DNA from: Prorocentrum cordatum
Taxonomy: Eukaryota
NCBI GenBank assembly: GCA_963575745.1
Contig: CAUYUJ010000252.1
Location: forward strand, 1 to 64,000
Length of the DNA: 64,000 nt
Direction: 5' to 3'
The notes under the pieces were generated by a model. That model was not told the origin of the DNA. It saw nothing but the letters and a program-made list of their open reading frames with translations, and made no database searches. The position numbers and the translations under genes are program-made. This document shows positions 11,661 to 50,084 of the stretch, in pieces (position 1 is the stretch's first letter; every line of letters starts with the position of its first letter).

Positions 11661-13011
11661 GATGTGCCGCTGTCCATTGGGAAGGGCATGTTTACAAAAG
11701 GGTGGCCCAGCTGCGACGTTGGCTTTGTGTGTTTGGATCGGCGCTCTTCCTCCCGCCGTTCACAACGGCCCTCTCGCCCAAGCGCGGGCCACAGTTCAGG
11801 GCTCGACTTCTTCATCGTCGTCGGCGCCCCGCTCCTGTCCTCTCCTCCTCCGTGCACTGGTCCTCCTGCTCCTCCCGCTCCTCCTGCTCCTGCTCCTGCT
11901 GCCGCTGCTCCTCCTCGTCCTTTTCATTCCTCATCCTCGTTTTGCCCACCCTCTTGCTCATCCGCCACCTCCTCCTCCTCCTCCTCCTCCTCATCCTCCT
12001 CCTATTCCTCCTCCTCCTCCTCCTCCTCCTCCTCGGATGTACACAGGGCTCCTTCTCTTTTTGCGCATAGCATGATGTGATCCTTTGAGGGTTCCAGTTC
12101 CGCTGTGTCACCCGTCGGCGGATAGAGAAACATCAGCGCAATGGGAAGGGATTGGTGTGAATGGGGTAGGATGTCAGATGTGACGCGAGCCCCCTCCTTT
12201 CTCCTGCCTTCTCTCCCTCTTCCCTTCCCCAGCCCCTCCCCCTCTCCCCTCACCTTCCCTTCGACATCTCACCTCCCCCTTCCCCGACCCCTCCCCAACC
12301 CCTCCCCCTCCCCTCACCTCCCTCTCACCCTCCACCCCCCCTCTCCCCCGAACTCTGCCCCTCCCCCTTCCCCCCCCCTCCTCCCCCCCCCAGAGCCGAC
12401 CGACCTGGACCTCTCGGGGGGTAGGGTCTGGGAGTGATGCCTTGCCCCCCCCCCCACACCACCTCTCCCCCTCCCCTCCCCTTCCCCCTCCCCCTCCCTC
12501 CCCCTCCCTCTCCCCTCCCCTCTCCCCTCTTCCTCCCCCTCTCCCCCCTCCCTCTCCCTCCTCCAACATCACCAGCACTGGCAATCCCCTCATCATTGTC
12601 ACCAGCCCTGTGCAGTCTCTACCTTGCCGTGCTCGACGGCCAGGGCTCCCCCAGCATGCTCCAACACTGGGCTCCGTGGCTTTCTACCTGGGTCTCTTGA
12701 TGCTGAAGGGCCCACGGGAGTAGAAAGGAAGTCGGACGTTACCCGCCCCACCACCCTAAGCAATCTTGGCGTGGCAAGTGTGTGCTGGCTTCTCAATCAT
12801 AGCCCAGCGGGCTGCGGGAACCCTTTGAGACCACCCCCAGAGGGGCTCCATCAAAGGACGCAACCCGTCTGACAACATCCTGGGACGAGACGGCTATCTC
12901 GCTTCACAAGACGTGCTCCACGCCGACTCCGAGGGGGGCCTCGCCCTCTTCGGTTTGAGGCCTGTTCCCCATCTCTGGACCATGGTTGGATTTTCGAAAT
13001 TTGGGAGCGTA

Positions 13012-13188
13012 CCGTCGGGGCCCTGAAAAAAGGAACCTTGTTCGTTGGGGAGGGGCTCCGCGTTCCTTAAGTGTTTCACAGTTTGCCTCAGGTTTTCCTT
13101 ATGTTTTCGATACGAGATGGAAGTTTAACTAGTGGAAAAAAGGGGCCTCGTTCCTTATTTAGGGTTCCTTAGGTCAAGACCCTCACTG
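13012..13188. mobile_element. MITE copy 2, flanked by TA
   Basis: Colinear with 7446-7623; TA at 13010-13011 and 13189-13190. Confidence 0.8.
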
Positions 13189-13190
13189 TA

Positions 13191-14690
13191 TTAGAATTCC
13201 TTGGAGCATCGTCGTCGCTTTCAGCAGCCTGTACAGGGCTGTTTCCATCAGCATCATGTTTGGGGGGCTCATCTCGGACGGATTCCTCCTAAATCGTAGC
13301 GTACGGCAGAGATGCCCGCTCAGCGGCTTCATCTTCGCGTTGGCCCTCGACCCGTTCTTGTGTGCCCTTCGCCAGCACTGCCCATATGCCGATGGCGAGA
13401 TCTGCACTTTCGCCGACGACGCCAGCATTGGCTGTTGGGAAACATGTTGCCGAACCTGCTTCGCATTTTCGTCCGCCTGCCTGCGCGCCAGGCCTCTCTG
13501 TTAACTGTGCCAGGCCCGTCGTTGTTACCCGGTTTTTACACTAAAGACGAAGCGCTTCAGAAGTTCCAGCAAGCTGGCGTAGATGTATCCAGCTTCACGG
13601 TCCAGAGAACTCGGGGGTATCTCGGAGTCACCCTCGGCCGAGGGACCGCCTTTCATGGCACGCCCAGTTTGCGAAGTTAACGCTCGCGCCTGAGAGACCA
13701 AAAACAGGAGATCTTTCACTCATCTCATCTGTCGCTCTGTTTAGTTTTGTTGGACCGCCGTCTTATTTCATGTAGGCCAATACTTTACAGTGTGCCGTGA
13801 AGTCAAAGGTGCATATCGCAGGTCAGTGACCCACAAACAGCCCGCGCTTTTTAGTTTCGCACTTCTCCCTCCTGAAGCTCGACGATCTACAAATCCGTCC
13901 TCCTCTGTGGGATCTTGAGTGCGAGGTTTGGGCATATGTATATCATTGTGCCGTGGAGCGGACTGCCTACCATTGCGTGGTGCATGACTTTGATGAGCTT
14001 TGGAAGGAGGGGGACTACGTTGTCGCTCATCGCCTCCAGCACATGTTCAAGTATTCGTTTCTTTCTGTATGCGCGAGAACGTGAAGAGCCTAATTAGCAT
14101 CCCTGGAGTACCCCGCTTTTGTTAGGATTTTTTTTTCAATGGTCCGTGTACGAGCAGTTGCGGGAATTTGATCCCAGACATGTTCGTGAGTCCCTCTTCC
14201 CCCGCTTTAAACACCGGGGTCTTGAGCCATCTTCGGGCCAGATCGACATTGCCCTGCGTAGGTCCTCGTGGGTGCCCCTTGATTGCGGTCTCGACTCTGC
14301 TGAGCTGGGCCAACAGCTGGAGCAAAAGTGCTCGGTATAGGCAAGCCACCTCTTTGTGTAGATCTCTCTGATCAGATGAAGCACTACCTCCGATGCCCTG
14401 AAGCCCTGCCCGCAATCCAAAAGTTGGCGCCGTCTCTTCCAGCATGCTGGGAATCGGCGACCTTTTCCCATGTCCGCTGTCCCGAGCCCCTCTTTCTCTC
14501 ATATCCTGCACGGGTGCTGTCGTTGAATGTTGCCCTCGATCTGTTTCGCATCTCTTTCTGCGGCCTCAGGTCGCGCGAGGCGGTCTCCTCGCCTCTTGCC
14601 CGCTCCTGCTTTCACGCGCGCCTGCGCGCCCTCGCACGGAAACGCGGTCGGGTGCAAACACTCGCAGCAATTTGAACGATACATTGCAGA
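13191..14690 (+). mobile_element. Degenerate 5'-truncated L1/Tx1-like LINE fragment (RT + C-terminal Cys/His motif)
   Basis: SVRQRCPLSGFIFALALDPFL (GVRQGCPLS-like), FADD, GYLGVTLG, DQMKHYLRCP; many frameshifts. Confidence 0.8.
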
Positions 14691-18700: not shown

Positions 18701-18722
18701 TCCGTAGCCATGTTGGCCCAAG
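18701..18722 (+). other. DinoSL spliced-leader relic (TCCGTAGCCATGTTGGCCCAAG), followed by a weaker second relic at 18723-18739
   Basis: 20/22 identical to DCCGTAGCCATTTTGGCTCAAG. Confidence 0.85.
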
Positions 18723-19943
18723 GTTATCCTGGTTCAAAGCGTCCACGGTAGTTCCGTTGCAAGAGTGCTCCCCTGACACTTTCTACTACAATATATACCG
18801 TTTTGTCGCGCCACCATTCTCGGCGGGGATGCCAGAACGTCATCTTCTCAACGCCTCAACGCGGCCAGAGGCAAAACAACAGAGGATGAACAGCCCGCTG
18901 CGCAAGATGGACGGGTTGGACGACGCAGCCGAGCTTGCCGCAGGTGGCGTCTGAAGTGTGGACGACGGGACGAAACAACAGCAGGCACCTTTCCAACAAC
19001 GTCTTGCAATCGCATCGGACGGTGCACTGTTAACGGTAAGTATGCTGTCACGCATGCTACTTGAGCACCTGGGGCCGATCAGGTTCGACATTGCCGCGAT
19101 CAAGCAACACGGCGTATCGCACGCAGACCTGAAACCATTAAAAACATCGATTGGCGGCCTTACTTTGCGCATTGCAGCCATTGAGGCTTGAGGCTAACCG
19201 TGCTGTTACGAGACACTAATCGGCAACATCGGGGGCAGCCCCCAGCATGAATTCCACGATCGAGGATAAATTGCACGGGTTGGCGCGCGAGGTGGACAAT
19301 CTTCGTGGGAAAAGGTTTCTAGGACCACTTAGCAACACTACGGCATCAACGACCGCCTACACAGCTGGGAAAAGTTATAACAACATCAACATGACGATCG
19401 TCGTGAATGATCTGCAGGCGGCGACGCCCAAAGAGGACCATTCAGTGATATTCGTCTTTCAATGTTGGCAGTGCGCAGGCGTGCACCATGGGCCAGGTCA
19501 TTGATATGCCACTGGCTTGCGCGCATTGGGGGGTGGACGCCACTTAATGCCCGGGTGCTCTTCCAAGTTGCTCCTTAACAGGGCCGGTGGCGCGGGCGGT
19601 TCCACGTTCTGCCTTGCGGTTTCGTTCCCACCAGTCGGATGGCTAACATGCAGCGCGCAATGCAGACGAGACGCTTCTCCGTAACATTGACAGGCGGATG
19701 TCGCTTGATTCGACGGGCACCGCCTGGTCTGATTCAACATATTTTCGGCTTCTATCCATGTTGCCATTTTGTAATATATTTTCACAGGGGTGGGTAATTC
19801 GACTTAAGTACTGGGTTTCCGCACGACTCCGTCTAGCTCCAACCTCCCATGTCCAAGTAACGACTTAAAACCTTCAACAACCCCGACTAAAAGTCAGTTC
19901 GCACCCGTGCACTGATCACCGTCAACGAAACATGGAGAACGAC

Positions 19944-19978
<35 letters not shown>

Positions 19979-22860
19979 TGGACCACCTGGGAAATACATA
20001 CTCTCAGCTGCACGACATGATCGCCATCCGCGAGCAGTGGCGATTGTGTTAAATAGCCAGCATGCCCGATTTATCAAGAGTTCACAGCCATCAGCGAGAG
20101 GATCGCTTACATGGACTTGGACTTGCCAGAGCAATCCATGAGGATAATCCGTCGTATTTTCCCCACTGTGGTTACGGCGACACCCACGTGCAGCAGGTAT
20201 ACGACATGCTCTCCGCCCTCCATAAACGGCCGGCCCATCAGCGAATGATGACAATACTGGCTGGCGATTCCAATGTGCAAGTTGGGGTTCAGAGCATCTG
20301 CGACGATACGGACAACGACGACGAGCAGCAGGTTGCACCGAACACATTGGTGGACAAATTTGGAATGGGGACGTGCGGCGCCCGAGGAACATGGTTACGA
20401 GCATGGGCGAACAAGGAGAAACTGATCACCAACACGCACTTTTACACAAGCACCCGAGCCATGTCTTTACACGCGCCAGCAGCAGCTCAGGCAGAACACG
20501 TTCAAAAATCGACTACGTCCTCATCGACCGGGCGTTCCGCACCATAGTTCTTGATGCTCGCGCGTCCGCGTGCCCAGATTTAGGCTCCGACCGTCAAGCT
20601 GTTCATATGCAACTCGACTTGTCTGTTTCGTCCGTGAAGCGACGGCGGAAACGGAGCAAACAGAAGACAATGCTCGCAGGACGACCACGGGCTAACGATC
20701 CACATTTTCAGCAGCACTTGACAGAATCGTTGCAAGAACGTTCGCGAGACTCAACAGTACGCGAGAGATGTGCAGACACTGAACGAGCGTTGCTAGTTGC
20801 AAGTGCGCTCTATGCCGATAGCAAGTACCACTGCGACTCCGACAACAAGCAGAACCAACAACTCCGTGACCTCATCGCCCAGCGACGCAGCACGCCGGAG
20901 GAGGACACCGTTGCCCGCAAGATGATTAGCAAACATATCTGCAAGGAGCTACGGTCATTGAAACGGGCCCGGCGGCAGGAGAAGATCAAGGACATCATCT
21001 GCAGTTTCAAGGGCCTCACAAAGATAGCGAGCACCAGAAAGATCAAGCACAAAGACATGATTCCGACTATGACGGGGCGCGATGGCAACGACGTGACTGA
21101 TCGACAAAGCATCGCCGACATCTTCGCCACATTCTACGAGCAGCTCTACCGGCGCAACGTTTACCACAACGAACGTGCGACGCGCGACGCCGACGCACCC
21201 CTCAGGAGCGCCGACACCGGCATGGCCCACGTCCCCATGCCACCCTTCTCACAAGAAGAGGTAGTGCAGGCGATCAAGCAATTCAAATATTTCAAATGCA
21301 AGGACACGGCGGGGATCACAGCAGCATGTTGAAGGCCGGCGGGACGTGCATAGAGCAACGCCTGCAATGCTTATCCGACGACATCATACAAACATTTTGT
21401 TTACCACCAAAATAATGGAGACGTACGACCCTTAGCGTAATCTTCAAATCTGGGGCCCCCAAAAGACCGCAGAACTATAGACCAATTGCGGTCATTCCTT
21501 TCCTGTGCAAGTTGATGGCCCGATTCGCGTGCAATCGTCGAAACCCAGGACTGGATGGCCAATGAAGCGTCGACCAAGCAGGCTTCCGACATGGCTACAG
21601 CACCGAAGGCCACCTCTCACCACAAGCCTGCTTCACAACCAGTCGGAAGAATGGCAATTACCCCTGCGGGCGGCAGGTGTGGACTTCAATCAAGCATTCG
21701 GCTGCGCAGGCTCTGGGAGAACAGCGAGCACCCTCATCCTACATCGACCTCCTACAGAAGTCCTACGACAACCAAACTGCCAGAGTCCGCACGGACACCA
21801 CGAGCACAGAGCTCAGCATTGAGAGAGGCGTAAAGCAAGGTGACCCGCTCGGCTCACTTCTGCCCGACGCGCTTCTTGAACATACCCTCCGACGGTTGAA
21901 GTTGTCGCAGTACAGGAGGAAGTTGGGCATGCAACTGGGATTTTGTCACAGACCCCATCATTACCAATCTTATATTCGCAGAAGATGTTTTGTTGCATGC
22001 ACCGTATCTACGCCAGCTGAAACGTTTACGTTGCGATCTGAAGAACCAGTCTTCCCACTGCGGCTCGGATCTGCACCCAGAGAAGACCAAACTACTTTCG
22101 AATGTCACCCGCCGCGAGGGCAGAACAATTCATTTCGTCACTATCGGTGGAGATAGCGTTGAGGTCTTGGAAGCGAAACAGAGCACGAAACTCTCAGGCG
22201 GAGTACTCACGTTTCATGACTTCCACGAAAAAGGAGCTCAATCATAGAATTGCCTCTGGGTGGCGCAAGTTTAACCAATTAAGGCACGAACTGATGTGCC
22301 AACACTACCCTCTTGCCAGCCGCCTGCGGCTTCTCAACTGGGCAGTGACGCCTGTCGTCACGTGCGGATGCACGTCGCTTGGTTTTATTAAGAATATGTT
22401 CACTACATTACAGCGGACGCAACGACATACTATCATCATCGTAGTTGGCACCAGCAGGAGGCGCACGAAGGGCCCCCCCGAGAACGACGACCAGACGAAC
22501 CATCATACCAGCAATTCCGAGCTCGCGGAGAATACCAATTTAGAGACCACAGCGCCTGAGAGCGACTTCGGCGACAGCAGCGAAACCAACGACGACGACA
22601 ACACAAGCAGCTTTGACGACAGCACCACGGGTTCCGGGATCGATTTTGTCTGGAGAGCAGCGCGCGTTGCCAACGCTCGCGCCGAACGAGCCCAAGTCTA
22701 ATTCTGGACAACAGCTCATTGCAAACGGAAGTGGCGGTGGGCTTACCGCGTGGCAAATCAATCTATTGACCGATGGTCACGACGTGCCGCCGTGTGGGAA
22801 CCCCCAGTGCATGACAAACGACCTGCCCAGAGGAGACACGGAGGGCAGCGGAAAAGATAG
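18701..22860 (+). mobile_element. Near full-length degenerate RTE-like LINE (ORF1-like coil, APE, RT) in an intron of gene A
   Basis: APE motifs YFPH, LAGDSNVQVG, KIDYVLID, LGSDRQAV. RT motifs IFKSG..NYRPI, DFNQAF, RGVKQGDPL, FAEDV. Numerous stops and frameshifts. Confidence 0.9.
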
Positions 22861-24059
22861 GAGGGCTCCGCTGCGGCGGATCTGCGCGTTTCGTTTCGCT
22901 TCGCTTTGCTTCGCTTCGCTTCGCTCCTCCTCCTCCTCCTCCTCCTCCCTCTCCTCCTCCTCCTCCTCCTCCTCCTCCTCCTCCTCCTCCTCCTCCTCCT
23001 CCTCCTCCTCCTTCTCATCTTCCTCCTTGCCTTCTCGCTCCATGCCTGCCTCTCTTCCCCCCTTTTCGACGCTGTCGTCCTCCCACTTCTCCTCTTCCCC
23101 CAATCTTCCCCTCCTCTTCGCCCCCCTCCACCTCCTCCTCCCTCCTCCCTCATCCCCGCCCCCCCCCCTTTCGAGCCAGTTTGGAGCCATCCAAAGCCTG
23201 CCAAGCCCCTCCTCCTCGTGATTCTCCATGGCATACCTCCTCCTCCTCCTTCTCCACCTGCGTTTTCCGTCCTATTCAACTTCCCTTCTCGGTCGGGAAC
23301 TGTTGGATCGCGTGTTGCGCCGCTGGTTCTGGCCCACCACGCTCCGGCGCGACACGTTATCCACTCCGCGGCCCCCAGACGTCAACGCCCCGACCATATC
23401 ACGAGCCTCCCGCCGCCCGCCCTCCTCCCGAGCCCTGCTGCCCCCATCCCTCCTCCCGTTGTTTTCCGTACTGTAGTTCCTGAGTTGGGCTTTTTTTTTG
23501 TCCCGCTTTGCGCATTCCGCCGTACGGGTTCACCTTGCTCATCATCGAGCGAGCAGAACTATGCACATACACCGATTCTGGCATAATTCTCCTTTCTCTG
23601 TCATCACGCTTCCTGCGCCTGCAGCTCTGGCTTCGGTCCCTGGGTGTCGCCGCCAGGTCACTCGAGCCCCGGCTGGCCGCACCGGGGCGCTCATCCTGGA
23701 ATCCTTCCCGCGGTGAGTGCCCCCCCTCCCTTCCCGTTCTCCGCGACGGCTCCTTCCCGCTCTTCCCTCCTCTTGCAGCCGGGCAGCTCGTTTGCCCAGC
23801 GCCCCCGGCAGCTCGAGCGCCCGCGCGGATTGCCCCGGCCGGGCCGCGACGCCAGAGGTGTCGTTAGCTTGGGCTGCCTGAGATGCTCCAGGCGTGGCCT
23901 CCCTTCGTTGGAGAGGGCTGCGGGAACCCTGCGCAGGAGTCCCCCCCCCCCACTTCCCGCACGGGATGTGCGCGTCGCCCGCGAATGCACGGCGGCCGCG
24001 CCGAAGCCATGCCCGACCGGCCTCCTCCCTCCCCAGACCGGTCGAGACCTCCCCCGCAG

Positions 24060-29043: not shown

Positions 29044-29230
29044 CGGCGGCGAGAGAGGGGGGGGAAGTGAGCATGAGAAGGCCTTCTCAGAAGGCGGCGG
29101 GTCTTATCATAAGCCCTCGCGCCTTCCGAGGGGTCGTCTGAGTCTTCGGGGGAGGCTCAGAAAACTCGAAAGCTGTCCAGCAGGCCGGAGGACCTCCGAG
29201 CCTTCCCAGAGGGCCTTGCCTCATCAGGGC
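29044..29230 (+). repeat. Dispersed repeat; other copies at ~32741-32900 (+) and ~49330-49430 (-)
   Basis: Shared cggcggcgag...gagaaggccttctc(a/g)gaaggcggcggg...aagccctcgcg. Confidence 0.8.
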
Positions 29231-31214: not shown

Positions 31215-31740
31215 GCAGCGTAGAGTAGAGTAGGGACGAGTCTATGAGTCGAGTAGATCTCAACACCTTACAGTCTGTTCGAGTAGAGTAGAGCACGGTA
31301 GTGTAGAGTAGAGTAGAGTCGAGTAGAGCAGGAGTAGACCAGTATGCGCAGAGTAGGGCCAGGTAGGGTAGTGCAGGGTAGATGTAGGTAGCCTCTAGCA
31401 GCCTAGTGTAGCGAAAGGCATTGGAGTAGGGTAGATAGTGTAGCAGAGTCGCACGCAGTCAGAGCAGCGTATATCAGGACAGAGTAGATCATAGTAGAGT
31501 CGAGTATATACGAGCACAGCCGATTCGAGTAGACCATGGGCGAGTCTATTCTATTGTCGTAGGATAACCGTTGAGTAGAGTAGGGTATTAATTCAGTAGA
31601 TTCGCAGTCGGGTAGAGCAGCGTAGAGTAGATTCTCGTAATTCGGGTGGAGGAGGGTCTGTCAGGGTAGGGCCGGGTAGAGTCGAGCAGTGCAGGGCACG
31701 GCGGGGCAGAGTAGGGCAGATGCTAGAGCATGGTCGAGTA
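31215..31740. repeat. Degenerate (TAGAG)n satellite, resuming at 36556-36830
   Basis: The same pentamer tract lies on both sides of the 31745-36555 element. Confidence 0.85.
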
Positions 31741-33195
31741 TCATCGATTCCCCGCGGGCATGCAACAGTTCAGGCCCGCTGCCCGTGGCCACGGCGCCAG
31801 CCGGCCTGCCTCGCGCCAGCCCCTGGCCCGTGCCCCGGGCGCGCGGTGGGCGAGCGCCAGCCGAGCGCCGAGTGCGACGAGAGCTGGCTCGCGCTGAGAG
31901 CTCCTCCTCCGCCGCTGGGCCGACCTCGCGGGCAGCGCCGTCGGGGCTGCCTCGGGGAGCGGGCAGCCTGGCGGCGCCCCTCCGCCCAGACTCGGGAGCC
32001 TTCGGCGCCCTCGGGTGAGAGGCGGTGCTTACTGAACGCTGCCATGGGCGACGCCACTTGCCTCGGGTGCGGCGGCGTCGGGCCTGTTGCCGAGGCTGGA
32101 GTAAGTGAGGCCGCCACCCCTGCCGTCCTCGTCATAGCTGCGGAGGCCGCTGTTGCAGCTGCCTCCCCGCTGGTGCCTCCTCCACCGTCACGGAGCCGAT
32201 GCCGATGGCAGCCTGCCCCGTCTCTGCACCGCCCATGTGGTACTCCTTCTGGGCTGGGCTGTCAGGATCAGAAGAGGAGCAGGAGCAGCAGGATGAGGAG
32301 CAGGAGCAGGAGGAGCACGAGGAGGAGGAGGAGGAGGAGGAGAAGGAGGATGAGGAGGAGGAGGAGGAGCAGGAGGAGGAGGAGGAGGAGGAGGAGGAGG
32401 AGGAGGAGAACGAGGACGAGGACGAGGACGAGGACGAGAACGAGGAGGACAAGGAGGACAAGGAGCGCCTGTGGAGTGGTATGTAGGCCAGGCGGAGCTC
32501 GTACCTCTGGAACCCTTCCGCCACCCCCAGCGGGATGCCGTGCCTGCTGAGCGCGCCCGTGGGCGACCGCCCCTCACTCGGGGCATAGGCGAGCCTGTCC
32601 TGGCTGGGTGCGAGAGCCGATGCCGACGCCGCGGGTGCCTTCTGGCATGCCGACCTCGCCAGTGGCTGCGGCGGCCGCCGCCGCCGCAGCATGCTGCCAC
32701 TGCCGCGCTTGGCCTGGCCCTGGAATCGGTGCCCCCCTTTTCGGCGGCGAGCGAGGGGGGGAAGTGAGGAGGAGAAGGCCTTCTCGGAAGGCGGCGGGAC
32801 TCCTCAGAAGCCCTGGCGCACTCAGAGAAGTCTTTGTTGGTCTTTCGGAAGGCTCCGAAGACTTCTCAGACGGCCCGGGGACTCCCGATCCCTCTGATGA
32901 GGCCCTCTCCTTCTCACTCCTCCCCCTCGCCCGCCGACCTTGTGCCCCGCCCCCCGGGGCTGCGGAGCGACTCGGGGCCGGGCTCCTCCAGCCTGGTGCC
33001 CGCGGTGTGGCCGAGGTGCGCGCCAGCGCCGACCCCGCGGCCAAGGGGGCGGGGGGCCGCCGAGGGGTGCCGGCCAGCGGCGAGGCAGCGGCCACGGCGC
33101 GAGGGCGCGGGCCTCCGAGCCGCGCGGTGCTGCTCGGGCTGCTGCCGACGCTGCCCTTCGCGGTCCTCCTCGCAGAGGCCCGTGGTGGCTGCTGC

Positions 33196-33390
33196 GAGCA
33201 GTACTCATGTCCACATCCACTGCAGTATGGAGTTCCGGGCTCCCTTCCCCAGAAGCCCAAGCGCGCACTGGATATGGATAAATTTGCCCCCGAGAGGCTC
33301 GATTCTTATCCATGTCCAGTACGCCTCGGCCTTGTGGCGCCCCTTCCCAAAAAAATCGAAGGCACACTGGATATGGACACAACTCTTGCC
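33196..33390. mobile_element. MITE-like foldback inserted in the LINE
   Basis: TGTCCACATCCA / TGGATATGGACA inverted ends, with internal copies of the same motif. Confidence 0.65.
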
Positions 33391-36300
33391 CGCAGCTGCG
33401 GTGAGTGCTGTGCGCCTGCGCTCGCCCTTGTCCCACGCCATCCGGCGCAGGCCTGCGGCCGGCCGCCGGAGGAGCGGCGGGTGCTCGTCGCCGTCCCCCT
33501 CCCTGGAAGACGCGGTCGAGGGACGGCAGCTGCAGCCTGGCGCGGGCGTGGGAGGTGCGCCACTGCTCCCAGCGCTGCTGCGCGCTCACGCACTCTTCGT
33601 CGTAGAGGAAGTGCGGGACCCAGTTGGCGGCGAGCCTCCGTGTAGCCTCCTGCAGGAGTGCGCAGCCGTCGCACTCGTGCTCCTCCCCGACGGCGTGGCC
33701 GCTGTGGGGGTGATGCGTCCTCCCCTTTGCCCGCGGCTCCGCGTTGAGGCCGACGCCGTTGTCGAGGCATGGCGCTGCTAGCGGTGGAGCCCCCGCCATG
33801 GTGTCTGGGAGGTCCCGTCGATCAGCCTTTCCGTATAGGCCGTAGAGGCTCAGGAAGGCGCGCTGGAGCGCGAGCCTCCCAGCCCTGCTCCTGCGCCGTG
33901 CGTTAGCGCAGACCTCCGGCGTCGTAGCCTGCCGCGTCGCCTCCTGGGACCAGCCGCGGTCTGCCGCATGTCTCTCGACGATAGTCGGCCGAAGCTGGGG
34001 TGCTGCATGCAGTTGAAGACGTGCGTCTCGCACCTGTCTAGCTGGTCCCTCGTGGCCGCGCCCTCGTTGTGCATCAACGCAGTGGGGTAGCACCACGCTG
34101 CGGCCAGCCTCGGTAGCGTTCGCCTCATGGTTGCATCTTCATGGCGTCCATCTTGTCGGATGCGAGGCTCTTCCTTGTCGATCGGGTCCACTGGCAAGGT
34201 TCCCCCCGTGGCCTCGCTCTGGAGGCCTGGTTCCTGAGGCTCCTTGGCCTGCTGCCCTTCGCTGGCGGGCCCCCGGCGAGTGCGCTTCGCAGGCGTCGTG
34301 GCGCATGGCGCCCATGCTCCCCTGGGTGGTGAAGAGGTTCGGCTGCGACCGGGCTCCGCGGCCTTGGGGCCCCTCAATTCCTCGCGCTCCACCTGGGGGA
34401 AGCACTTCTGGTCGCACCTGCTGCCCTTGAGCACCTGCTCTCAGCTGACGAGGGCCCCATGGCGGCGGCACCAGCGGTCGGGACCGCCTTGCTCCACAGG
34501 ACGGTGCGAGGGCAGCTCGCTCCTGGCCGGGTGGGGCACGCTCAGCGGCTCGATGGCCTGGCGCCGAGCCGCGAAGGCAATTCAGATGCCTGACAGCTCC
34601 TCTGGCCCAGGCCTCGTCCCTCAGTGCCTCCATGACGGCCTGCTCCTGCTGCGTGTCTGCGAGCGTAGCTACAGCAGGGGCGGCGACTGAGGCGCCGCCA
34701 GGGGGGGCCATCGCCTGTAGTTGCCCAGGAAGCCCGCGCGGGCCCTCGAAGTCTCATGCTTTGGTGGCAACTCACGGGAGCCTCCCATACCAACTTGTCG
34801 GCTCTCGCGAATCGACGCTACATCGACGCTAGTCGACGGGGTACTTGTGCAGACGGCTTCGCAGGTGTCCCATGCCCGCATTCACATTGACTCGTGGAGC
34901 GACACTGGACGTGGTGGTGCCCGTGAGCAGCAGGATGAAGTGCGGCCTCTCCAAGAGCGTTGCCATGAACGGGACGGACCAGTCGATCCAGTCGTTGATT
35001 TCGTGCCAGGCTTTGCCTTCTGTCATTACAAAGAACTACTGCACGGCTTGGCCCTCAGGATGTCCAGCGACTCGCCGTGCATGTTGAGCCTGGGACGAGG
35101 GTGGCCTTGCGGGGGGGCTTTCCCATGCACCTCCGATCTGGCGGTCTTGGTCCATGCACCTCCACGTGCTTGTCGGTGCCCGACTCACCCCGCAGGTCCC
35201 ATTGCCTGCGTGCCTTCTGATCCTCGCGCTCAGCCTTCGGCAGGCATTTCTGGTCGCGCTCGCTGGCCCTAGGCACCTCCTCCTACTTGCCGATCAAGCC
35301 ACTACGGCACTGCCAGTTCTGGGTCCTTGGTCCACGAGGTCCAACGAGCTCTGCTTCAGGGGACAGCTGGCCATGCTCCTGGATATGGGATGCCGAGGGC
35401 TGCCCTAGACCTGGAAACCATCCGGAGAACTTGACAGCGTACATGCCCGCTTCCTGGTAAGATCCTGGCTTCTTGTCCCTGGCTTGCTTCACAAAGTCCA
35501 GTCGACGTCCAGTCGACGTCGCCGGGCAGGGGGTCGGCGGTGGCGTTGACCTCGTGGCGTCCGTTGCCTCTGGACCCTCTGCATCTAGGCTGCCGCTGCC
35601 AGGATGACCGCGAGGCACTCCTTCCTGTCCTCTGGTGCTCCTTATGGTGGCACTGCTGCAGTGACGTCTTCCAGAAGGTCTGGGTCGTCCAAAAAGTGGC
35701 TCTTGCTTAGGTGCTGTAGCGCCTCCGCCGCCGTCGCCTGGGCGGTGAGCATGCGCGCCATCATCGCCAGTCTCACCGCCGCCGGCCCCGTCGGCAGGCC
35801 CCTCCATGGCCGCGTCGGTTTCCTCCTGGCCTTCGTCGACTGCCTTCTGGCGCGGAGCGCCTCGTGGGCCGCGTCTACCTTGACACTGCTCTGCATGCAG
35901 TGCTGGGGCTTGCTGGACTCGGCTGCCGGCTTGAGCCCTTCAAGACCTGCTCCTCCAGGCGCCGACCCGTGGACATTCTTGATTTCGGTCTCCGCCTCGG
36001 CGAGCTGGCCATTGAGCTCTTTGAGATGCCGCTTCTCGCGCACGATTTGCTCCGCGATCTGGGGCTGCTGTTTCTCCAGGCCGTCGAGCATGCGGACGTG
36101 CTTATCACTCTGCTGCTGCTCGAGCTTGCGCCTCGCTGCCAGGAGCGATCTCAGTGTCGAGACCGTTTGTTTTTCTCGTACTCGGCGGCCAGCTTCCCGA
36201 GCGTGACAGCGATGCCATTGCCTGCTTCGCCTATTCCGGCCTCGGCCGTGAGCTCGATGGAGGGGCCTGCTGCTCAAAGCGCCTGCGCTGCCAGGGCGTG

Positions 36301-36533
36301 CGGTTTGTAGCTGCCGTAGCTGACGGTGCTTACGCGCCCCTTGGTGAAGGTGATGGAGCCGCAGCGGCACGGCCAGTGCGGCGTCCGCGGTCCTCGTAGC
36401 ACGCCGTACTCTGCTTCTGGCGGTGGTCCCATGATTCTGGGTGTGGAGTGCCAGGGCAAGCCCTCGATGTGGAACAGTGGAGAACTGGCCGCGGACCAGC
36501 GGCATTTGTCGAAACACCCGGACGAGTGAGCAC

Positions 36534-36555
36534 CTTGAGCCAACATGGCCACGGT
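36534..36555 (-). other. DinoSL spliced-leader relic (ACCGTGGCCATGTTGGCTCAAG)
   Basis: Reverse complement of cttgagccaacatggccacggt; 20/22 identical to DinoSL. Confidence 0.85.
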
Positions 36556-37859
36556 GGGTAGAACAGAGTAGAGCAGAGTCGAGTCGAGTAGAGCAGATGA
36601 CAGTACATGAGAGCAAAGTAAGAGTAGAGTAATACTAGAGAAGACAAGGGTAGAGCCGAGCAAGAATAGGAGTAGAGTCGAGTAGCGTAGGTCCTGTACG
36701 GTAGGGTAGAGCAGAGTAAGGTAGAGCAGAGCAGAGTAGAGTGGAATAGAGTAGATGGTAGAGTATAGTCGGGTAGAGTACAGTAGAGTAGTGTGGAGTA
36801 AAGTTGTTGACAGTGGAGTAGAGTCTAGTCTTATCCATCAGAGCCCAGTGCAGCCCAGCCTACTCCAGCCCACTCCAGTCCACCTCATATCAGTCTTCTG
36901 ACCTATTTGGCGTCTGCGTTTTTTTGTCAGCTTCTTAATATCACACTCTCTCTCGCTCTCTCGCTCCCACATGTCTCAAGTGCCGCCCGCGCCCGCCCTC
37001 TACAATTGGACGGGCCTGCCCGCGCTGGTGCGCGTGGTGGCGCACGTATTGGCGTTCGCGCGTGCAGGAGGGCCCTCGAGCGCACATTCGCGTGCACGCT
37101 CTGTGGCATGGGTAAGGATGTACACATGGGCTTTCGCTATCATGTGCGCATGCGTGGTCCCCGCGCCGTGAGTGTCCACCTCTCCTTCCCGCCCTCCGCG
37201 GCCGCTTCCTCCCCCCTTCCCCACTCTTGCAGCTGGACAGTAAGGGCTGTTTCGTAGCCCGACGCGCTAGAGCGCGCGAGCGGATTGCCTCTGCCGCGCT
37301 CCGACGTAAAACACGCATGTACAGTCACGTGCCTATGCGCAGGGGCATCATTGTTCAAGCGTGTACATGCTCGCGCGCACGGCTGCCGTCGTTTGTCCGC
37401 ACCTGCGCCTGCATGCGTCTGCGCGCGTATGAGGTTCCACTTCGGGAGTCAGGTTGCGAGTTCTGGCGGCGGCTGGAGCGGCCGCAGTTACAGCCCTGGC
37501 TCTGGGTGCAGCTTCGCGCCCTTGGCTCCCAGTGTCCGCGGGAAGCCCGTTGTCCAAACGATGCTCTAGGACCCAAGAGTGGCCAGGATCACAGTCTGCT
37601 TTTCCCGCCCTCCTCCCCTTAGTCCCCCTGAGGAGAAGAGGTACGACGGAGCACAGGACAGAATTCCGAGTGATTCGCGATCTCGAGATTCACAGATGCC
37701 CAAGGGGAACACGACGCCCCGAGTTTCCTGGGTACCATCTTGTCGCCCCATTGTTCCGAAGGAGGGCACTTAGCGCACCCACAGGAGACTTGCTAATCTT
37801 GCAGCCATCACATGTTTCCTTTCGAGTCAGCTCGCCAAGCTATGCCCAGAAGCTGCCAG

Positions 37860-39589: not shown

Positions 39590-39938
39590 TGGACCTGCAC
39601 GAACGAAATGGGCAAGGAAAGAATGGGTATTACCAGCCTCGAACGCATCCCTATCCCTACATCTTAGGTTCGCCCTCAAAAAATAAGGGAATCCCTAAGA
39701 TTGGCATCATGATGAGGAGGTGCCCAGCATAGGGATAGGGATATGTTCCAGGCTGGTAAGGGTACAATGCCCAACAGCGGTCTTGTCCATTTTGAACAGG
39801 GCTCGCGGTCCGCGCCGCCGCGGCCTGCGTCCATTCGAGACAGGAGGCCGCCTGCCCAACAGCGGCCGCTGTTGAATCGGGACAACATTTGCTGTTGGGC
39901 ACTGTGCCCATTGTTTCCGTGCCCATTGCGGGCGTCCA
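39590..39938. mobile_element. Nested MITEs: inner element 39630-39759 with 5-bp TSD GGGTA, inside an outer foldback
   Basis: Inner TIR TTACCAGCCT..ATCCCTATCCCTA / TAGGGATAGGGAT..AGGCTGGTAA; outer AATGGGCA..TGCCCAACAGC / GCTGTTGGGCA..TGCCCATT. Confidence 0.8.
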
Positions 39939-40019: not shown

Positions 40020-40155
40020 TTTGGCGTTCCGCGCGGATTTCTTGGCTCCGCGCCTGGGCCCCCCGACGGCTCCAGCGGCGCCGCCCCTGGCGCGCTCCGC
40101 GCGACAGGGAGGTGGGCCCGTCGCGAATCCAAGCAATCCGCGCGGAGCGCCAACA
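40020..40155. mobile_element. ~135-bp MITE family; other copies at ~49101-49240 and ~61275-61420 (inverted)
   Basis: TTGGCG(T/C)TCCGCGCGGAT / ATCCGCGCGGAGCGCCAA ends; shared core ggcgccgcccctggcgcgctccgcgcg. Confidence 0.75.
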
Positions 40156-40619: not shown

Positions 40620-40815
40620 CTCATACACACCCCTTACATGTGCGACTCCCAGATGTCTTGGTGTGGAATTCCGCCCGGGCTCCAGGTGCGCGATGTCGGA
40701 TGGGATCCCCGCTCGAGCCCCCCCCTCGGGGTCGACGCTTCGCACCCCTAATTACCTACAGCACCTTAGCCGCCTTGCCCTTCCCCAGTCCACCTCCCTA
40801 TAGGTTTGAGCGTGC
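40620..40815 (+). repeat. Diverged direct repeat; second copy at ~42550-42755
   Basis: cccagat..gtggaattcc..tccccgctcga..ctcggggtc..cgccttgcccttcccca..cctaYaggtttgag is present in both. Confidence 0.85.
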
Positions 40816-40961
40816 GCTCTTCTTTCATCGCGCCCCACCCATTTCTTTCGACTCGTCCTCTCTCTGCCTCGGTGTTAGTGCCAAGTTCTTCTGCAGCCAC
40901 TGGCTCACTGGGTGCGTTTTTGCATGGGGCCGCGCAGTGCCATTCAGCAAGTGGGCGCCAC

Positions 40962-42047
40962 ATGTCTACCAAGGTCGCAAGTGCAGTGACGAGGACGGCA
41001 GGTGGAGGTGAGAACCCTGAAGAGCCTCTCAGAGAACCTTTGGTTAACCTGCCAGTTGAGACCGGTAAGAAACATGTCTACGGATACATGTGGATGTTTG
41101 CGGTCGCGAGTCTGAATCTTGGGACGGTGGTATTGACCAGCTTCATCTCACAGTCTGGCGATATCCCGACATACACTCAGAATTTCATAAGGTGCCTCGC
41201 AGCGGCCTTTTCCATGCTCGCGGTCGCCATCTTTCGTCAAGACCCACTGCTTCCATCTAGGTTGATAGCTCGACAGTGCTTGACTTTCGGTTTGGCCGAT
41301 TGGTTCTTCCTCTGGGGCTACGTGAAAGCTCTCATCTATGTTTCAGTCTTGCAGTACACTGTTCTCAATACGTCTTTCGGCCCCGTTGTCAGCGCGTTGA
41401 TGGGTCTTTTGGTGCTCGGCGAGCAAATTAGTAAATATAAGGTATGTGGGCTGCTTCGAAATGTGGCCTTGGCATTCCTGATCACAGATCCCTTCGATGG
41501 AAAAGGTTCTGTAGCCACATTGATGACAGGATTTCTCTGGGTGATCGTGGCTGCGGCTGGCACCGGTGCCATGCGAATCGTTCAGCGCACGAATGCTGCA
41601 ATTCCCCCGATCGTGTTTATGTTCTGGGGCTACGTCCTAAATACTTTGTTGTGGTTGCCGCCAGGATGCATTCCACCAAAGTTACGCGTGCCTTTCCTGT
41701 GGCCTGCCGTGCCCCAGGATAGCACAGACTTGTTCGGATTACCTGCGAGCACTTGGATCGTGATGTCGCTCTCAGGTGTCCTTGGTGCGTCGATCATGCT
41801 TGCTCAAGGCCAGGCTTTGAAGTACTTGGATGTAGGCACATATGCTATGCTTGTAACACCGTTGGCGCTGGTCCAAACTGTCATCTATAGTTCGATATCC
41901 GCGTGCCTGCGGCAAGTTTCGCCACTGTGCCAGCGTAGCGCTCTGTTTGGCGGACCTTCGAGATCCGCCCGGAAGAGCTACAGTCAAGACGCTGAAATAA
42001 GGAACAGCCTGGGTTCGGAAGGGGCACGCTGTTCCTTGGATTCATAG
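40962..42047 (+). CDS. EamA/DMT (drug-metabolite transporter superfamily) membrane protein; similarity fades at ~41900
   Basis: About nine hydrophobic helices with DMT signatures NFIRC, KALIYVSV, PVVSALMGLLVLGEQI and QALKYLDVG; more than 900 nt without an intron. Confidence 0.85.
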   Translation: MSTKVASAVTRTAGGGENPEEPLREPLVNLPVETGKKHVYGYMWMFAVASLNLGTVVLTSFISQSGDIPTYTQNFIRCLAAAFSMLAVAIFRQDPLLPSRLIARQCLTFGLADWFFLWGYVKALIYVSVLQYTVLNTSFGPVVSALMGLLVLGEQISKYKVCGLLRNVALAFLITDPFDGKGSVATLMTGFLWVIVAAAGTGAMRIVQRTNAAIPPIVFMFWGYVLNTLLWLPPGCIPPKLRVPFLWPAVPQDSTDLFGLPASTWIVMSLSGVLGASIMLAQGQALKYLDVGTYAMLVTPLALVQTVIYSSISACLRQVSPLCQRSALFGGPSRSARKSYSQDAEIRNSLGSEGARCSLDS

Positions 42048-47928: not shown

Positions 47929-50084
47929 CATCATCATCCTCATCATCACACATGTATAAATGTATATAGTAAGTATATTTATATATCTATGTATACCGAT
48001 GTGGCTCGCCCCTCCTCCTGGAGAATGTAAAGCTGGGGCGAGGGGAATGTGCGATGCGGAACACCTTGGTAAGCACTTCTGCCGCTCCAGACACGGCCCT
48101 CGAGAGAGCGCGAAAGGATGCCGTCTCCCTTTCCCTTTCTGACAGAAAGTAACATATTTTTCTCAATCATGGTTTTGCCGACCGTCGCGGACCCTCGCAC
48201 CCCCTCCCCCCCTCCATGGAGTAGATTTTAGCTGTTTTTGGCGCCTGTTTCAAGCAGGTGGAGTCCCATCATGGACGCCCTTTTGCAAACAGTCGCATCG
48301 AGCCAGACCCCCCCCCCCCCTCCCACCCCCTCTCCGCCCAATGTCAACGCCGAATGAGGGAACGTTCGCAAGCTGGTGGAGGGTCCGCGAAAACGCGCGT
48401 AAGTGCAGCGAGGGCGGTCTCGCCGGCGCAGACGTGGCGGAAGCCGACCGACGACCCACAGACGGAGACCATGGGCGGGCCAGAGCTTCTGGAGCCGAAC
48501 GCATCGGCATACACATAGGATGGTCTTTCATACTCGCTGAACCCAGGGTGCTTCCGGTGGGCCTATTGCGGATCTCAGACTGTGTCGGGCGAACGGGTAG
48601 GCGGCGATTGCTTGTTCTTCGCCTCATGCAAGCTTTGACCGTGATTTGCTGTGAGTCTGCCTTGATTGGCTGTGGGCTTGTCGCTGCTATGCCTTTGCCC
48701 TTCCTTAGCCTTCGCTCCTTTTCGTGTTGCTCCTGAACTGCTCTTTGTTATGCTTTCGTTGTTCTGTCATGCAGTTGCTGATGCTGACCCGGCAGGCCCC
48801 TCTCTGGCCGCAGCGTTGCTGTATTCCTCAGACGGTGCTTTCATTGAGGGATTATTGTGGGTTTTGCATTTTCTTGTGAGTATTTGGCTGGCGGCTCCTT
48901 GTTTCAAAGGAGCAAAAGGTCAGGATAATGATACGTTCCAGGATCCCCAAGGCTTCCAGGATTGCCAGTACTTCCTAACGTTCTGCACAGGCTGTGCCGC
49001 TAGATATGAAATCCCTGAAAGGATCCTGAGCCAATCTTATCATGACATCATGCTCGCCATAAAATTTCCTCGAAAAAGAAACGTCGCCATAGACATACAT
49101 TGTTGGCGCTCCGCGCGGATCTCTTGGATCCGCGTTGGGCCCCATCAGGCGGCGCCTCTGGCGCCGCCCCTGGCGCGCTCCGCGCGCCCGGGAGGGGGGT
49201 CCAGCGCGGATCCAAAAACTCTGCGCGGACCTCCAAACATTTGTGCTTGGGCCGCTTTTTCCTCCTCCATTCTCGGCCTCTTGCCGTCGGTGACCCCCTC
49301 GTGGCCGCCCCGTGCGCTCCCTGCCGCTCTTCGGGCGCTCTGGGCAGGCGCGAGGGTTTCTTCTGAGCAGCCCCGCCGCCTGCCGAGAAGGCATTCTCCT
49401 TCTCGCCTCCCCCCGTCGCTCGCCGCCGATTATATTGTTTTCGGCCTGTGGCCGTCGGCATCCCCCTCTCGCGGCCGCCCCGTGCGCTCCCCGCCGCTCT
49501 CCGGGCGCTTTTTTGGCAGGCCGCGCCCTTGGGCGACCTCTCGCGGCCGCCTCGTGCGCGGGCCCGGCCTTCCCGGGGACCCCCCCCCGGCGGTTCGCCG
49601 CCCGCGGTCGCCTCGCGGCTGCCCCGTGGACAACGACGACGACGACCACGACCACGACCACGACGATGACGGCCACGATCAGAGGAGAAAGAGGTACACA
49701 TGCTGCTACCCTTGCCTTGTTTCCCTTTTTTGGGACCTCCTGGGAGGCCCTCGTCGCTACCGCCAGATTCGCCTCGAAATCCTGGTCAGAACGCATCCCA
49801 GGGAGTAGCGGCATCGGTACCTTATGGGTTCCCCCTATCTAGGTTCCGTTCGCAAAAGCGGGATGGACTCTATCCTCTATCACCCTCCCGATGCCGGACT
49901 TACCGGATCCCCTTGGGACCCTGCAGTTTGTACATTTCTGCGTTAGCGTTCGTTGTCCATGCGAAATCCGATTATCCCAACCAAATCGGCATTGACCCCC
50001 GTCACGTCAGTCAAATGATACAATGCGCGCACTTGTGTATATCAAGATATTCTTGTCAGCAATCCCTTGCAACAGAGACCACAA

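What the first reader, a model, noticed from the sequence alone, without database searches (positions are those of the whole stretch)
31745..36555. A second, unrelated LINE-like element is also SL-headed and is inserted in a (TAGAG)n satellite
Seen: on the minus strand, ACCGTGGCCATGTTGGCTCAAG directly abuts the satellite and precedes a WPCRCG plus coiled-coil ORF1 and APE/RT-like remnants. The same satellite resumes at the other end, which defines the insertion. Inference: two different families in 64 kb starting with an SL suggests SL trans-splicing is a general part of the retrotransposon life cycle in this genome.
Basis: partly seen in the sequence, partly recalled or inferred. Interest (0 to 1): 0.75.

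Follow-up and report, generated by a model that had tools for sequence, protein, structure and literature searches.

The report
Spliced-leader-tagged retrocopy, not a LINE
A 4.8-kb stretch that starts with a dinoflagellate spliced-leader relic and splits a satellite is most likely a decayed reverse-transcribed copy of an ordinary trans-spliced messenger RNA, a known kind of genomic fossil, and it shows none of the enzymes that would make it a LINE.

Summary
The sequence facts hold. A 22-nt spliced-leader (SL) relic lies at 36555-36534 (-), 2 mismatches in 21 compared bases from the DinoSL consensus. It touches a 5/10-bp satellite that resumes at about 31736. No satellite word lies in between.

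The LINE reading does not hold. No APE or RT signal appeared in:
- 20 minus-strand ORFs
- all six frames read through stops
- three PDB searches
- a phmmer run against 1.84 billion proteins
- a local LINE profile

The same read-through scan does find RVT_1 (E=3.7e-4) in the other SL-headed element at 18701(+), so the method can find RT in a decayed element here.

The "ORF1" is not one ORF. The WPCRCG motif is in frame F3 and a 63-residue helix is in F2. A public gene model joins them only through a 170-nt GC..AG gap.

The body carries a ~170-nt unit three times, three short high-copy foldback or palindromic repeats and a (CTC)n tract. It has no poly(A) relic.

Best reading (0.62): a decayed SL-tagged retrocopy of a non-LINE mRNA of unknown function. 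This is a known class in dinoflagellates.

Open oddities: both SL relics in the window share the same T>G change, and both are followed by GT.

The parts
36556..36858 (.). Satellite, flank on the 5' side of the insert (5-bp AGAGT/GTAGA-type unit with a 10-bp register)
   Evidence: TRF 36565-36804 period 5; families D2/D3; 23 satellite words in 36501-37000
36534..36555 (-). Spliced-leader relic, 22 nt; A>G and T>G against the DinoSL consensus. The T>G creates an ATG (36546-36544) in frame F3
   Evidence: The consensus is printed in PMC7245778
36433..36533 (-). Leader between the SL relic and the first body ATG; begins with GT
   Evidence: The RNA fold is no more stable than shuffles (z=+1.0). 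No Rfam match at E<=10
36277..36432 (-). Short ORF (52 codons, frame F3) holding PEAEYGVLRGPRTPHWPCRCG. This is copy 1 of the thrice-repeated unit and exon 1 of the public gene model P0001
36132..36301 (-). 170-nt GC..AG gap that the public gene model removes to join F3 to F2. It may be an intron or a way of bridging a frameshift
   Evidence: P0004 aligns across it in one frame
35969..36157 (-). Long helix (coiled-coil-like), frame F2
   Evidence: AlphaFold2 helix over residues 2-64, block mean pLDDT 91-97; weak Fib_alpha hit E=0.38
35220..35360 (-). Copy 2 of the ~170-nt unit (PEAELVGPRGPRTQNWQCRSG ... RDQKCLPKAERED), with an in-frame TAG
   Evidence: (D5)
34829..35035 (-). ORF piece MTEGKAWHEINDWIDWSVPFMATLLERP..., 55% identical to transcript-derived protein P0005
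34675..34820 (.). Short high-copy repeat. Includes a 35-nt palindromic word also found at 49138-49172, 61341-61373 and 40055-40089
   Evidence: 37-70 contigs with unlike flanks pile on it
34378..34500 (-). Copy 3 of the ~170-nt unit (GPDRWCRRHG ... RCDQKCFPQVEREE), with an in-frame TGA at the same place as in copy 2
33572..33754 (-). ORF piece ...HECDGCALLQEATRRLAANWVPHFLYDEEC..., 52-55% identical to P0002 (a short partial protein on another contig, same species label)
33193..33390 (.). Pair of hairpin repeats (TCCATATCCAGTG-type arms), repeated elsewhere in the DNA runs
   Evidence: (4-25 contigs)
32745..32936 (.). Foldback/MITE-like element: arms 32745-32781 and 32900-32936, 32 of 37 matched; DNA fold -61 kcal/mol for 32740-32945
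   Evidence: Copies at 29044-29166 and 49348-49429. About 100 contigs per run pile on 32740-32819
32274..32458 (.). (GAG)n on the plus strand, (CTC)n on the sense strand: a microsatellite
31745..32273 (-). GC-rich 3' part of the insert with no A-rich tail. Whether it belongs to the retrocopied RNA is inferred only from its place inside the split satellite
31220..31736 (.). Satellite, flank on the 3' side of the insert (more decayed)

Best explanation
The stretch is a 5'-complete retrocopy of a spliced-leader trans-spliced mRNA that does not encode LINE enzymes. It inserted into a (CTCTA)n-like satellite and has since decayed. Steps 1-3 below are inferred; step 4 is partly shown.

1. A nuclear pre-mRNA of a lineage-specific gene of unknown function received the 22-nt SL by trans-splicing. 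The gene has an N-terminal W.C.CG-type unit present three times, a long helix and further unassigned segments.
2. The mature RNA was reverse-transcribed by a LINE-encoded enzyme acting in trans. Such LINEs lie in the same window.
3. The cDNA integrated, so that SL nucleotide 1 became the insert's 5' boundary.
4. Without selection the copy collected frameshifts and stops, about six frame changes over 2.9 kb. Short high-copy foldback and palindromic repeats and a microsatellite now sit in its body. Gene prediction picked up a 144-aa partial model from it.
For: The SL relic sits exactly at the satellite boundary and the satellite resumes on the other side.

Codon-position GC3 marks coding-like segments, up to 0.88-0.94, that hop F3>F2>F1>F2>F3>F2 with stops between them.

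No APE or RT signal was found:
- Pfam on 20 of 20 minus-strand ORFs, none relevant.
- All 6 frames read through stops: 0 APE or RT families at E<=1. The only hits were 4 weak ones (E 0.35-0.68) on the plus-frame translation of the GAG tract.
- PDB phmmer on the 3 sense frames at E<=10: low-complexity hits only.
- phmmer of 1190 aa of F2 against 1.84e9 proteins: 5 hits, none with RT.
- Local LINE HMM: nothing in the insert at E<=10.

Control: the same read-through scan gives RVT_1 E=3.7e-4 for the SL-headed element at 18701(+).

A true LINE of this window finds 5 relatives at E<=1e-5 at once. This stretch finds only 5 hits. P0001 is its own gene model, the exact translation of 36432-36302 plus 36131-35831. 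P0002 is one 68-aa paralogue at 55%. P0003-P0005 are three short transcript-derived pieces at 47-58%. Of these, P0003 matches only the high-copy hairpin repeat at 33193-33390 and a repeat at 39672-39758, so it says nothing about the body.

SL-tagged retrogenes and thousands of SL-tagged pseudogenes are documented in dinoflagellates (passages of PMC5585692; PMC12014239; PMC11453091).
Against: - No poly(A) relic: the only A-run on the sense strand of 31700-36560 is one A5.
- No clear target-site duplication.
- No parent gene was found. F2 has no long relative. An F3 segment has none among 174-555-aa proteins. The A2 profile has none among longer proteins.
- The SL is followed by GT, as SL RNA genes are (PMC6616646).
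- Pfam was weak on stop-to-stop pieces of the neighbouring decayed LINE (RVT_1 only E=0.19), so a very decayed RT could escape.
- A public gene model exists here, so part of it may still be a working gene.
Confidence: 0.62

Rival explanations
1. It is a live or recently live retrogene. The frame changes are introns, some made by the inserted short foldback repeats, and the locus still makes a protein.
For: A public protein record, P0001, is the exact translation of 36432-36302 plus 36131-35831 with a 170-nt GC..AG gap. GC donors are usual in dinoflagellates (passage of PMC6616646). The high-copy piece 34675-34820 sits where F2 is broken by three stops and F2 is open again after it. F2 is open from 34753 to 32822 except for one TGA.
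Against: The model is partial (144 aa) and covers only 431 nt. Long ORFs occur in several frames and on both strands here because of the 66-70% GC, for example 364 and 337 aa on the plus strand, so open frames carry little weight. Two of the three copies of the repeated unit carry an in-frame stop. The transcript-derived relative P0004 aligns across the supposed intron in one frame.
Confidence: 0.12
2. It is a member of an RT-less, SL-headed retroposon family: a non-autonomous element copied repeatedly by LINE enzymes.
For: Diverged relatives of two body parts exist. P0002 comes from another contig with the same species label, and P0004 and P0005 come from one transcriptome data set. A third transcript hit, P0003, matches only the high-copy hairpin repeat at 33193-33390 and a repeat at 39672-39758, so it does not bear on the body. 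The unit is repeated internally.
Against: The relatives are only 39-58% identical in protein, which fits an old gene family rather than a recent burst. P0001's 90%-identity cluster has 1 member. There is no copy elsewhere in the 64-kb window apart from the short embedded repeats.
Confidence: 0.1
3. The head is not the product of trans-splicing but an unspliced SL RNA or an SL-like gene. Either reverse transcriptase switched template from the 5' end of another RNA to an SL RNA, as in U6-L1 chimeric pseudogenes (recalled), or it is an orphan SL pseudogene that happens to lie here.
For: Both SL relics of the window are followed by GT. Sequences after the SL in 18 SL loci of Fugacium all start GU or GC (passage of PMC6616646). 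Both relics carry the same T>G, which breaks the ATTTTGG word. A GTGTTTCG word lies 16 nt after the SL, loosely like the GUUUUC proposed there.
Against: The 30-60 nt after the two SLs are unlike each other. There is no fold beyond shuffles, no Rfam hit, and no tandem SL or 5S array: the window's only two SL-like 21-mers within 3 mismatches lie 17.8 kb apart on opposite strands. GT after a splice acceptor is not rare. The insert boundary at SL nucleotide 1 is equally expected for a trans-spliced mRNA.
Confidence: 0.08
4. It is a decayed LINE. ORF1 is the WPCRCG motif plus the coiled coil, and APE and RT have decayed beyond recognition or were deleted.
For: A helix after a Cys-rich motif loosely resembles some LINE ORF1 proteins. 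Real LINEs lie nearby and one is SL-headed. Pfam is weak on stop-to-stop pieces of decayed LINEs here.
Against: No APE or RT signal by any of five approaches, whereas the control element with an equally diverged SL (2 mismatches) is detected. The coding-like body is only about 2.9 kb and holds one unit three times. WPCRCG is C-x-C, not a CCHC knuckle, and there is no zf-CCHC hit at E<=1. There is no simple-repeat or A tail. There is no family of relatives of the kind the true LINE finds.
Confidence: 0.05

Closest known systems
DinoSL-tagged retrogenes and processed pseudogenes of dinoflagellates (Slamovits and Keeling 2008, recalled and cited in the passages read; Song et al. 2017 PMC5585692; PMC12014239)
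   Same: A full-length SL relic in the DNA at the 5' end of an intronless-looking, broken coding body, inserted into unrelated sequence. This is what reverse transcription of a trans-spliced mRNA should leave. Song et al. count 4,744 and 5,092 pseudogenes with DinoSL relics in two genomes.
   Different: No parent gene was identified, there is no poly(A) relic, the SL carries a T>G that creates an ATG, and the body contains later repeat insertions.
Non-LTR retrotransposons (LINEs), for example the SL-headed one at 18701-~22925(+) and the one at 7807-11759(-) in this window
   Same: The orientation-specific 5' SL head matches that of the neighbour at 18701. Both would enter the genome by reverse transcription.
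   Different: No APE, no RT, no RNase H, no tail repeat, and no family of relatives (against 16, 55, 65).
SL RNA genes of dinoflagellates (passages of PMC6616646)
   Same: A 22-nt SL followed by GT.
   Different: Two changes in the otherwise conserved exon, no array, no 5S partner, and no shared intron between the two loci.
U6-L1 chimeric pseudogenes of mammals (recalled, not read here)
   Same: A small abundant RNA at the 5' end of a retrocopy through template switching. This is a possible route to an SL RNA head followed by GT.
   Different: Nothing here shows an SL RNA intron. This is a lead only.

Membership tests
LINE (non-LTR retrotransposon) | Reverse transcriptase domain | tested here: not met
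   Pfam on 20 ORFs and on 6 read-through frames at E<=1 gave no RVT hit. PDB phmmer on 3 frames at E<=10 gave none. phmmer of F2 against 1.84e9 proteins gave none. The local LINE HMM and hhalign gave only chance-level hits, E 0.21-0.53. Control element: RVT_1 E=3.7e-4.
LINE (non-LTR retrotransposon) | Endonuclease (APE-type or restriction-like) | tested here: not met
   No Exo_endo_phos hit in the same searches. The A4 profile includes an APE-bearing relative, P0010 (PF03372), and finds nothing.
LINE (non-LTR retrotransposon) | ORF1 with a nucleic-acid-binding module (CCHC knuckle, RRM or similar) as one open frame | tested here: not met
   WPCRCG is C-x-C. There is no zf-CCHC or RRM hit. The motif and the helix lie in different frames.
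LINE (non-LTR retrotransposon) | 3' tail (poly(A) or short tandem repeat) and target-site duplication | tested here: not met
   No A-rich tract and no tail repeat at 31745-31800. The only shared flank word is a 9-nt satellite word, so the duplication test is inconclusive inside a satellite.
LINE (non-LTR retrotransposon) | Many copies in the genome | not testable with these tools
   No genome is held for this window.
DinoSL-tagged retrocopy / processed pseudogene | SL sequence encoded in the DNA at the 5' end of the copy | tested here: met
   The 22-mer has 2 mismatches in the 21 compared bases. 0 of 100 shuffles gave any match. It lies exactly at the insert boundary.
DinoSL-tagged retrocopy / processed pseudogene | Lies in sequence unrelated to the parent locus (an insertion) | tested here: met
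   It splits one satellite array found nowhere else in the window in such density: 51 of 55 words.
DinoSL-tagged retrocopy / processed pseudogene | A parent gene with introns elsewhere, while the copy lacks them | not testable with these tools
   No genome is held. The protein searches found no long relative.
DinoSL-tagged retrocopy / processed pseudogene | Poly(A) relic at the 3' end | tested here: not met
   The sense strand of 31700-36560 has one A5 run and no window of 20 nt with 12 or more A.
DinoSL-tagged retrocopy / processed pseudogene | Disabled reading frame (for the pseudogene subclass) | tested here: met
   The GC3 frame path changes about six times, with stops between segments. 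The alternative of introns is not excluded.
SL RNA gene | Exact SL exon followed by a GT/GC donor | tested here: inconclusive
   GT follows, but the exon has 2 changes, one of them inside ATTTTGG.
SL RNA gene | Tandem SL or SL-5S arrays | tested here: not met
   The window's only 2 SL-like 21-mers within 3 mismatches lie 17.8 kb apart on opposite strands. No 5S or other Rfam family reaches the gathering score.

The most novel reading that the evidence does not exclude
The two SL heads in this window come from a variant spliced-leader RNA. It has G in place of the third T of ATTTTGG, which makes an AUG, and in both loci GT follows. Retroelement machinery would capture this RNA preferentially. 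One route is trans-splicing of retroelement and retrocopy transcripts by a minor SL class. The other is reverse-transcriptase template switching onto unspliced SL RNA. Either route would be an undescribed way of putting SL heads on retrocopies in dinoflagellates. It would also mean that SL relics are not always proof of a trans-spliced mRNA parent.
Probability: 0.1. Interest if true: 0.6.

Novelty: new member of a known kind. Interest (0 to 1): 0.25.

Why it matters
As it stands this is one more SL-tagged retrocopy in a dinoflagellate-type genome. It is useful mainly as a caution: an SL head plus a helix-rich first ORF is not enough to call a LINE.

Two things would matter if a genome-wide count bore them out.

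1. A decayed LINE in the same window (18701+) starts exactly with an SL. Full-length LINE copies could then be recognised, and their 5' ends defined, by the SL. The share of SL relics that head LINEs rather than host genes could be measured.
2. The shared T>G and the GT after both relics could point to a variant SL RNA, or to a template-switch origin of some relics. That would affect the use of DinoSL relics as retrogene tags.

Tried and rejected
- Whole-genome search: no genome is held for this window. Copy number, parent gene and a genome-wide classification of SL relics could not be done.
- Earlier notes of this scan: nothing by place, by words or by sequence.
- Sequencing runs: no RNA holder is listed. 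Only two DNA-type holders with small shares, 0.08 and 0.05. When laid, most of the insert (for example 31882-32657, 33822-34403, 34986-35179) had no cover in these low-depth contig sets.
- The joints reported between about 31323-31332 and 36556-36713 have sides under 30 nt and lie in satellite. I read them as satellite-to-satellite matches, not as an empty site.
- Metagenome scans with the helix ORF and with the A2 profile: nothing real. The one locus returned, L001, shares only 13 residues and nothing else, and I dropped it.
- ESM Atlas on the 196-aa F3 ORF: no usable hit.
- tblastn of the window's LINE ORFs against the insert gave only chance hits (E 0.5 or worse). The two LINEs do not hit each other either, so this was a poor control.
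- hhalign of the A4 LINE profile: the control scored E=0.016 at the right RT motif but with probability 2.8%. The insert frames scored E 0.21-0.53. The F1 match aligns the repeated W.C..G unit to the RT 'IPK...RP' motif. The unit occurs three times and the score is at chance level, so I rejected it.
- Alignment A3 was made in the wrong frame and is not used.
- Rfam: no family at the gathering score in the window, and none at E<=10 around the SL.
- Papers by Zhang et al. on SL RNA genes (PMC2734150, PMC1838650) are not held. The SL RNA intron of this genus could not be compared.
- Supplementary tables of the papers were not opened.


Full report
WHAT IS THERE

On the minus strand the 22-mer ACCGTGGCCATGTTGGCTCAAG occupies 36555-36534. 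It differs at two of the 21 compared positions from the dinoflagellate spliced leader (DinoSL, DCCGTAGCCATTTTGGCTCAAG as printed in PMC7245778; passages read). A search with up to 3 mismatches finds two such words in the 64 kb: this one and 18702-18722(+). None of 100 dinucleotide-preserving shuffles gave any match.

The base next to the SL's first nucleotide starts a 5/10-bp satellite. Repeat families D2/D3 have copies at 31300-31736 and from 36555 to 36858, with none between. Of 55 plus-strand satellite words in the window, 51 lie in 31220-31678 or 36566-36818, none lie in 31679-36565, and 4 lie elsewhere. So a roughly 4.8-kb insert with 64-71% GC, set in 57-59% GC flanks, splits one satellite array. 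Its 5' end is SL nucleotide 1.

THE 'ORF1'

The motif WPCRCG (36375-36358) lies in frame F3. The ORF runs from ATG 36432 and stops after 52 codons. The helix-rich part is in frame F2. AlphaFold2, without an alignment, gives one helix over residues 2-64 of 36160-35645(-), block mean pLDDT 91-97, with a poorly defined rest. So a long helix exists, but the motif and the helix are not one open frame.

A public protein record, P0001 (144 aa, partial, labelled Prorocentrum cordatum), is the exact translation of 36432-36302 joined to 36131-35831. It removes a 170-nt GC..AG gap. A transcript-derived relative, P0004, aligns across that gap in one frame. The gap may therefore be a predictor's bridge over a frameshift rather than an intron.

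WPCRCG is C-x-C, not a CCHC knuckle. It is part of a ~170-nt unit present three times on the same strand: 36420-36352, 35360-35220 and ~34500-34378. DNA identity is 73-76% between copies 2 and 3. An in-frame stop sits at the same place in copies 2 and 3.

NO LINE ENZYMES

All of the following were negative for the insert:
- Pfam gave nothing relevant for 20 of 20 minus-strand ORFs.
- Pfam gave no APE or RT family at E<=1 for the six frames of 31300-37100 read through stops. The only hits were four weak ones (E 0.35-0.68) on the plus-frame translation of the GAG tract.
- phmmer of the three sense frames against all PDB chains at E<=10 gave only low-complexity matches.
- phmmer of 1190 residues of F2 against 1.84 billion representative proteins gave five hits, all 62-170 aa and none with RT.
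- An HMM built from the window's better-kept LINE and five relatives, one of which carries the APE family PF03372, found nothing in the insert at E<=10.
- hhalign with that profile scored E 0.21-0.53, at chance level.

The control matters. On stop-to-stop pieces of the other SL-headed element, Pfam gave only RVT_1 E=0.19. The same read-through scan that was blank for the insert gave RVT_1 E=3.7e-4 over profile positions 2-143. Typical APE-end and RT words are also visible there. So a LINE whose SL has diverged equally is detectable by this method, and the insert is not.

WHAT THE BODY LOOKS LIKE

Third-position GC marks coding-like segments, up to 0.88-0.94. They hop through the frames as follows, with stops between them:
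- F3 at 36575-36280
- F2 at 36200-35750
- F1 at 35375-35225
- F2 at 35075-34925
- F3 at 34775-34025
- F2 at 33950-33600

This is what a coding sequence looks like after decay. Introns are the alternative.

Relatives are few and distant:
- P0002: 68 aa, another contig, same species label, 52-55% identical.
- P0004 and P0005: two short pieces from one transcriptome set in EukProt, 39-58% identical.
- A third piece from that transcriptome, P0003, matches only the high-copy hairpin repeat at 33193-33390 and, at 90%, a repeat at 39672-39758. It does not bear on the body.
- No long relative turned up.

By contrast the true LINE at 9705-11759(-) found five relatives at E<=1e-5 straight away.

The 3' third of the insert is not coding-like. 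It holds:
- a pair of hairpins (33193-33390);
- a foldback/MITE-like element with arms 32745-32781 and 32900-32936, 32 of 37 matched, DNA fold -61 kcal/mol, with copies at 29044-29166 and 49348-49429;
- a (CTC)n tract;
- 0.5 kb of GC-rich sequence.

Two public DNA runs were laid on the region. Many contigs with unlike flanks pile on just three short parts: 32740-32819 (about 100 contigs per run), 34675-34820 (37-70) and 33193-33347 (4-25). They also pile on the satellite. A few exact single pieces show that the same organism is in the runs. These parts are therefore short high-copy repeats inside the insert.

WHAT SPEAKS AGAINST A PLAIN RETROCOPY

- There is no A-rich tract anywhere on the sense strand.
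- There is no clear target-site duplication. The satellite makes this test weak.
- Both SL relics of the window are followed by GT, and both carry the same T>G.
- In Fugacium, all sequences found after the SL at SL RNA loci start with GU or GC (passage of PMC6616646).
- The same G variant was once reported as a non-canonical DinoSL in Polarella (passage of PMC7245778). A full-text search for that word finds only that paper and its preprint.
- Against an SL RNA gene or chimera: the sequences after the two SLs are unlike each other, they fold no better than shuffles, they have no Rfam match, and they lie in no array.

I keep this as a minor rival and as the most novel reading.

MECHANISM AND COMPARISON

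The best-supported account has four steps:
1. A trans-spliced mRNA of an unassigned, lineage-specific gene.
2. Reverse transcription by LINE enzymes in trans. LINEs with RT, RNase H and APE relatives lie at 7807-11759(-), and a decayed SL-headed one lies at 18701-~22925(+).
3. Integration into the satellite with the SL as the 5' end.
4. Decay and invasion by short repeats.

Steps 1-3 are inferred from the anatomy. Step 4 is partly shown.

This class is well documented. DinoSL relics tag retrogenes (PMC12014239; PMC11453091). Thousands of pseudogenes carry them: 4,744 and 5,092 in two genomes (PMC5585692). For all eight papers used I saw only search listings and passages found by term, not whole texts or supplements.

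THE WIDER INFERENCE

The window holds one SL-headed LINE and one SL-headed non-LINE copy. The two other RT-bearing pieces have no SL-like word beside them. One case cannot show that trans-splicing is a general step of the retrotransposon cycle. It is, however, what one expects where nuclear mRNAs generally receive the SL.

I did not find a paper stating that dinoflagellate LINEs begin with DinoSL. The three searches returned 39, 6 and 14 papers holding the terms. I read only listings and passages, so this is not proof of absence.

VERDICT

The open oddities are the shared T>G, the GT after both relics and the missing poly(A).

Noticed in passing
window 18701-22925 (+): A decayed LINE that starts exactly with an SL relic (TCCGTAGCCATGTTGGCCCAAG). 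RVT_1 scores E=3.7e-4 in a read-through frame. APE-end (IDYVL...SDRQAV) and RT words (QAGFRHGYST, GVKQGDPLG, FAEDVLL) are visible. A CWQC..HH knuckle-like word lies at 19220-19504. (TTCGC)7 at 22890-22925 may be its tail. This is the one real SL-headed LINE in the window.
   Followed up: partly
window 7807-11759 (-): A better-kept LINE with two long ORFs (685 and 718 aa): RVT_1 E=2.6e-10 and RNase_H E=2.3e-4. Its relatives are 49-86% identical, and one of them carries the APE family PF03372. No SL-like word lies on its 5' side.
   Followed up: partly
window 13163-13501 (+): An isolated RT scrap (RVT_1 E=2e-4).
   Followed up: no
window 40770-42044 (+): A 425-aa ORF with an EamA transporter domain (E=7e-12). 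It is the only clear host-type gene found among the 199 ORFs scanned.
   Followed up: no
window 32745-32936; copies 29044-29166 and 49348-49429: A foldback/MITE-like element of about 190 bp with 37-nt arms (32 of 37 matched). About 100 contigs per DNA run pile on one arm, so it is a very high-copy short repeat in this organism.
   Followed up: partly
window 34675-34709; also 49138-49172, 61341-61373, 40055-40089: A 35-nt GC-rich palindromic word that recurs four times in 64 kb. It forms part of a roughly 145-bp piece covered by 37-70 contigs per DNA run.
   Followed up: partly
window 36546-36544 (-) and 18710-18712 (+): The shared T>G in both SL relics creates an ATG inside the leader. At 36546 it is in frame (F3) with the 36432 ORF. 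At 18710 it opens a 13-codon ORF.
   Followed up: no
window 39672-39758 (-): It encodes 29 residues that are 90% identical to the C-terminal part of P0003. The N-terminal part of P0003 matches the hairpin repeat at 33203-33346. P0003 comes from a transcriptome set labelled as a green alga, yet it carries repeats of this genome type. The label or the purity of that set looks doubtful.
   Followed up: no
whole window: An unusual load of trinucleotide and other simple repeats. TRF gives 122 rows, with many (GAG)n/(CTC)n, (GAT)n and (CAT)n tracts of 100-700 bp.
   Followed up: no
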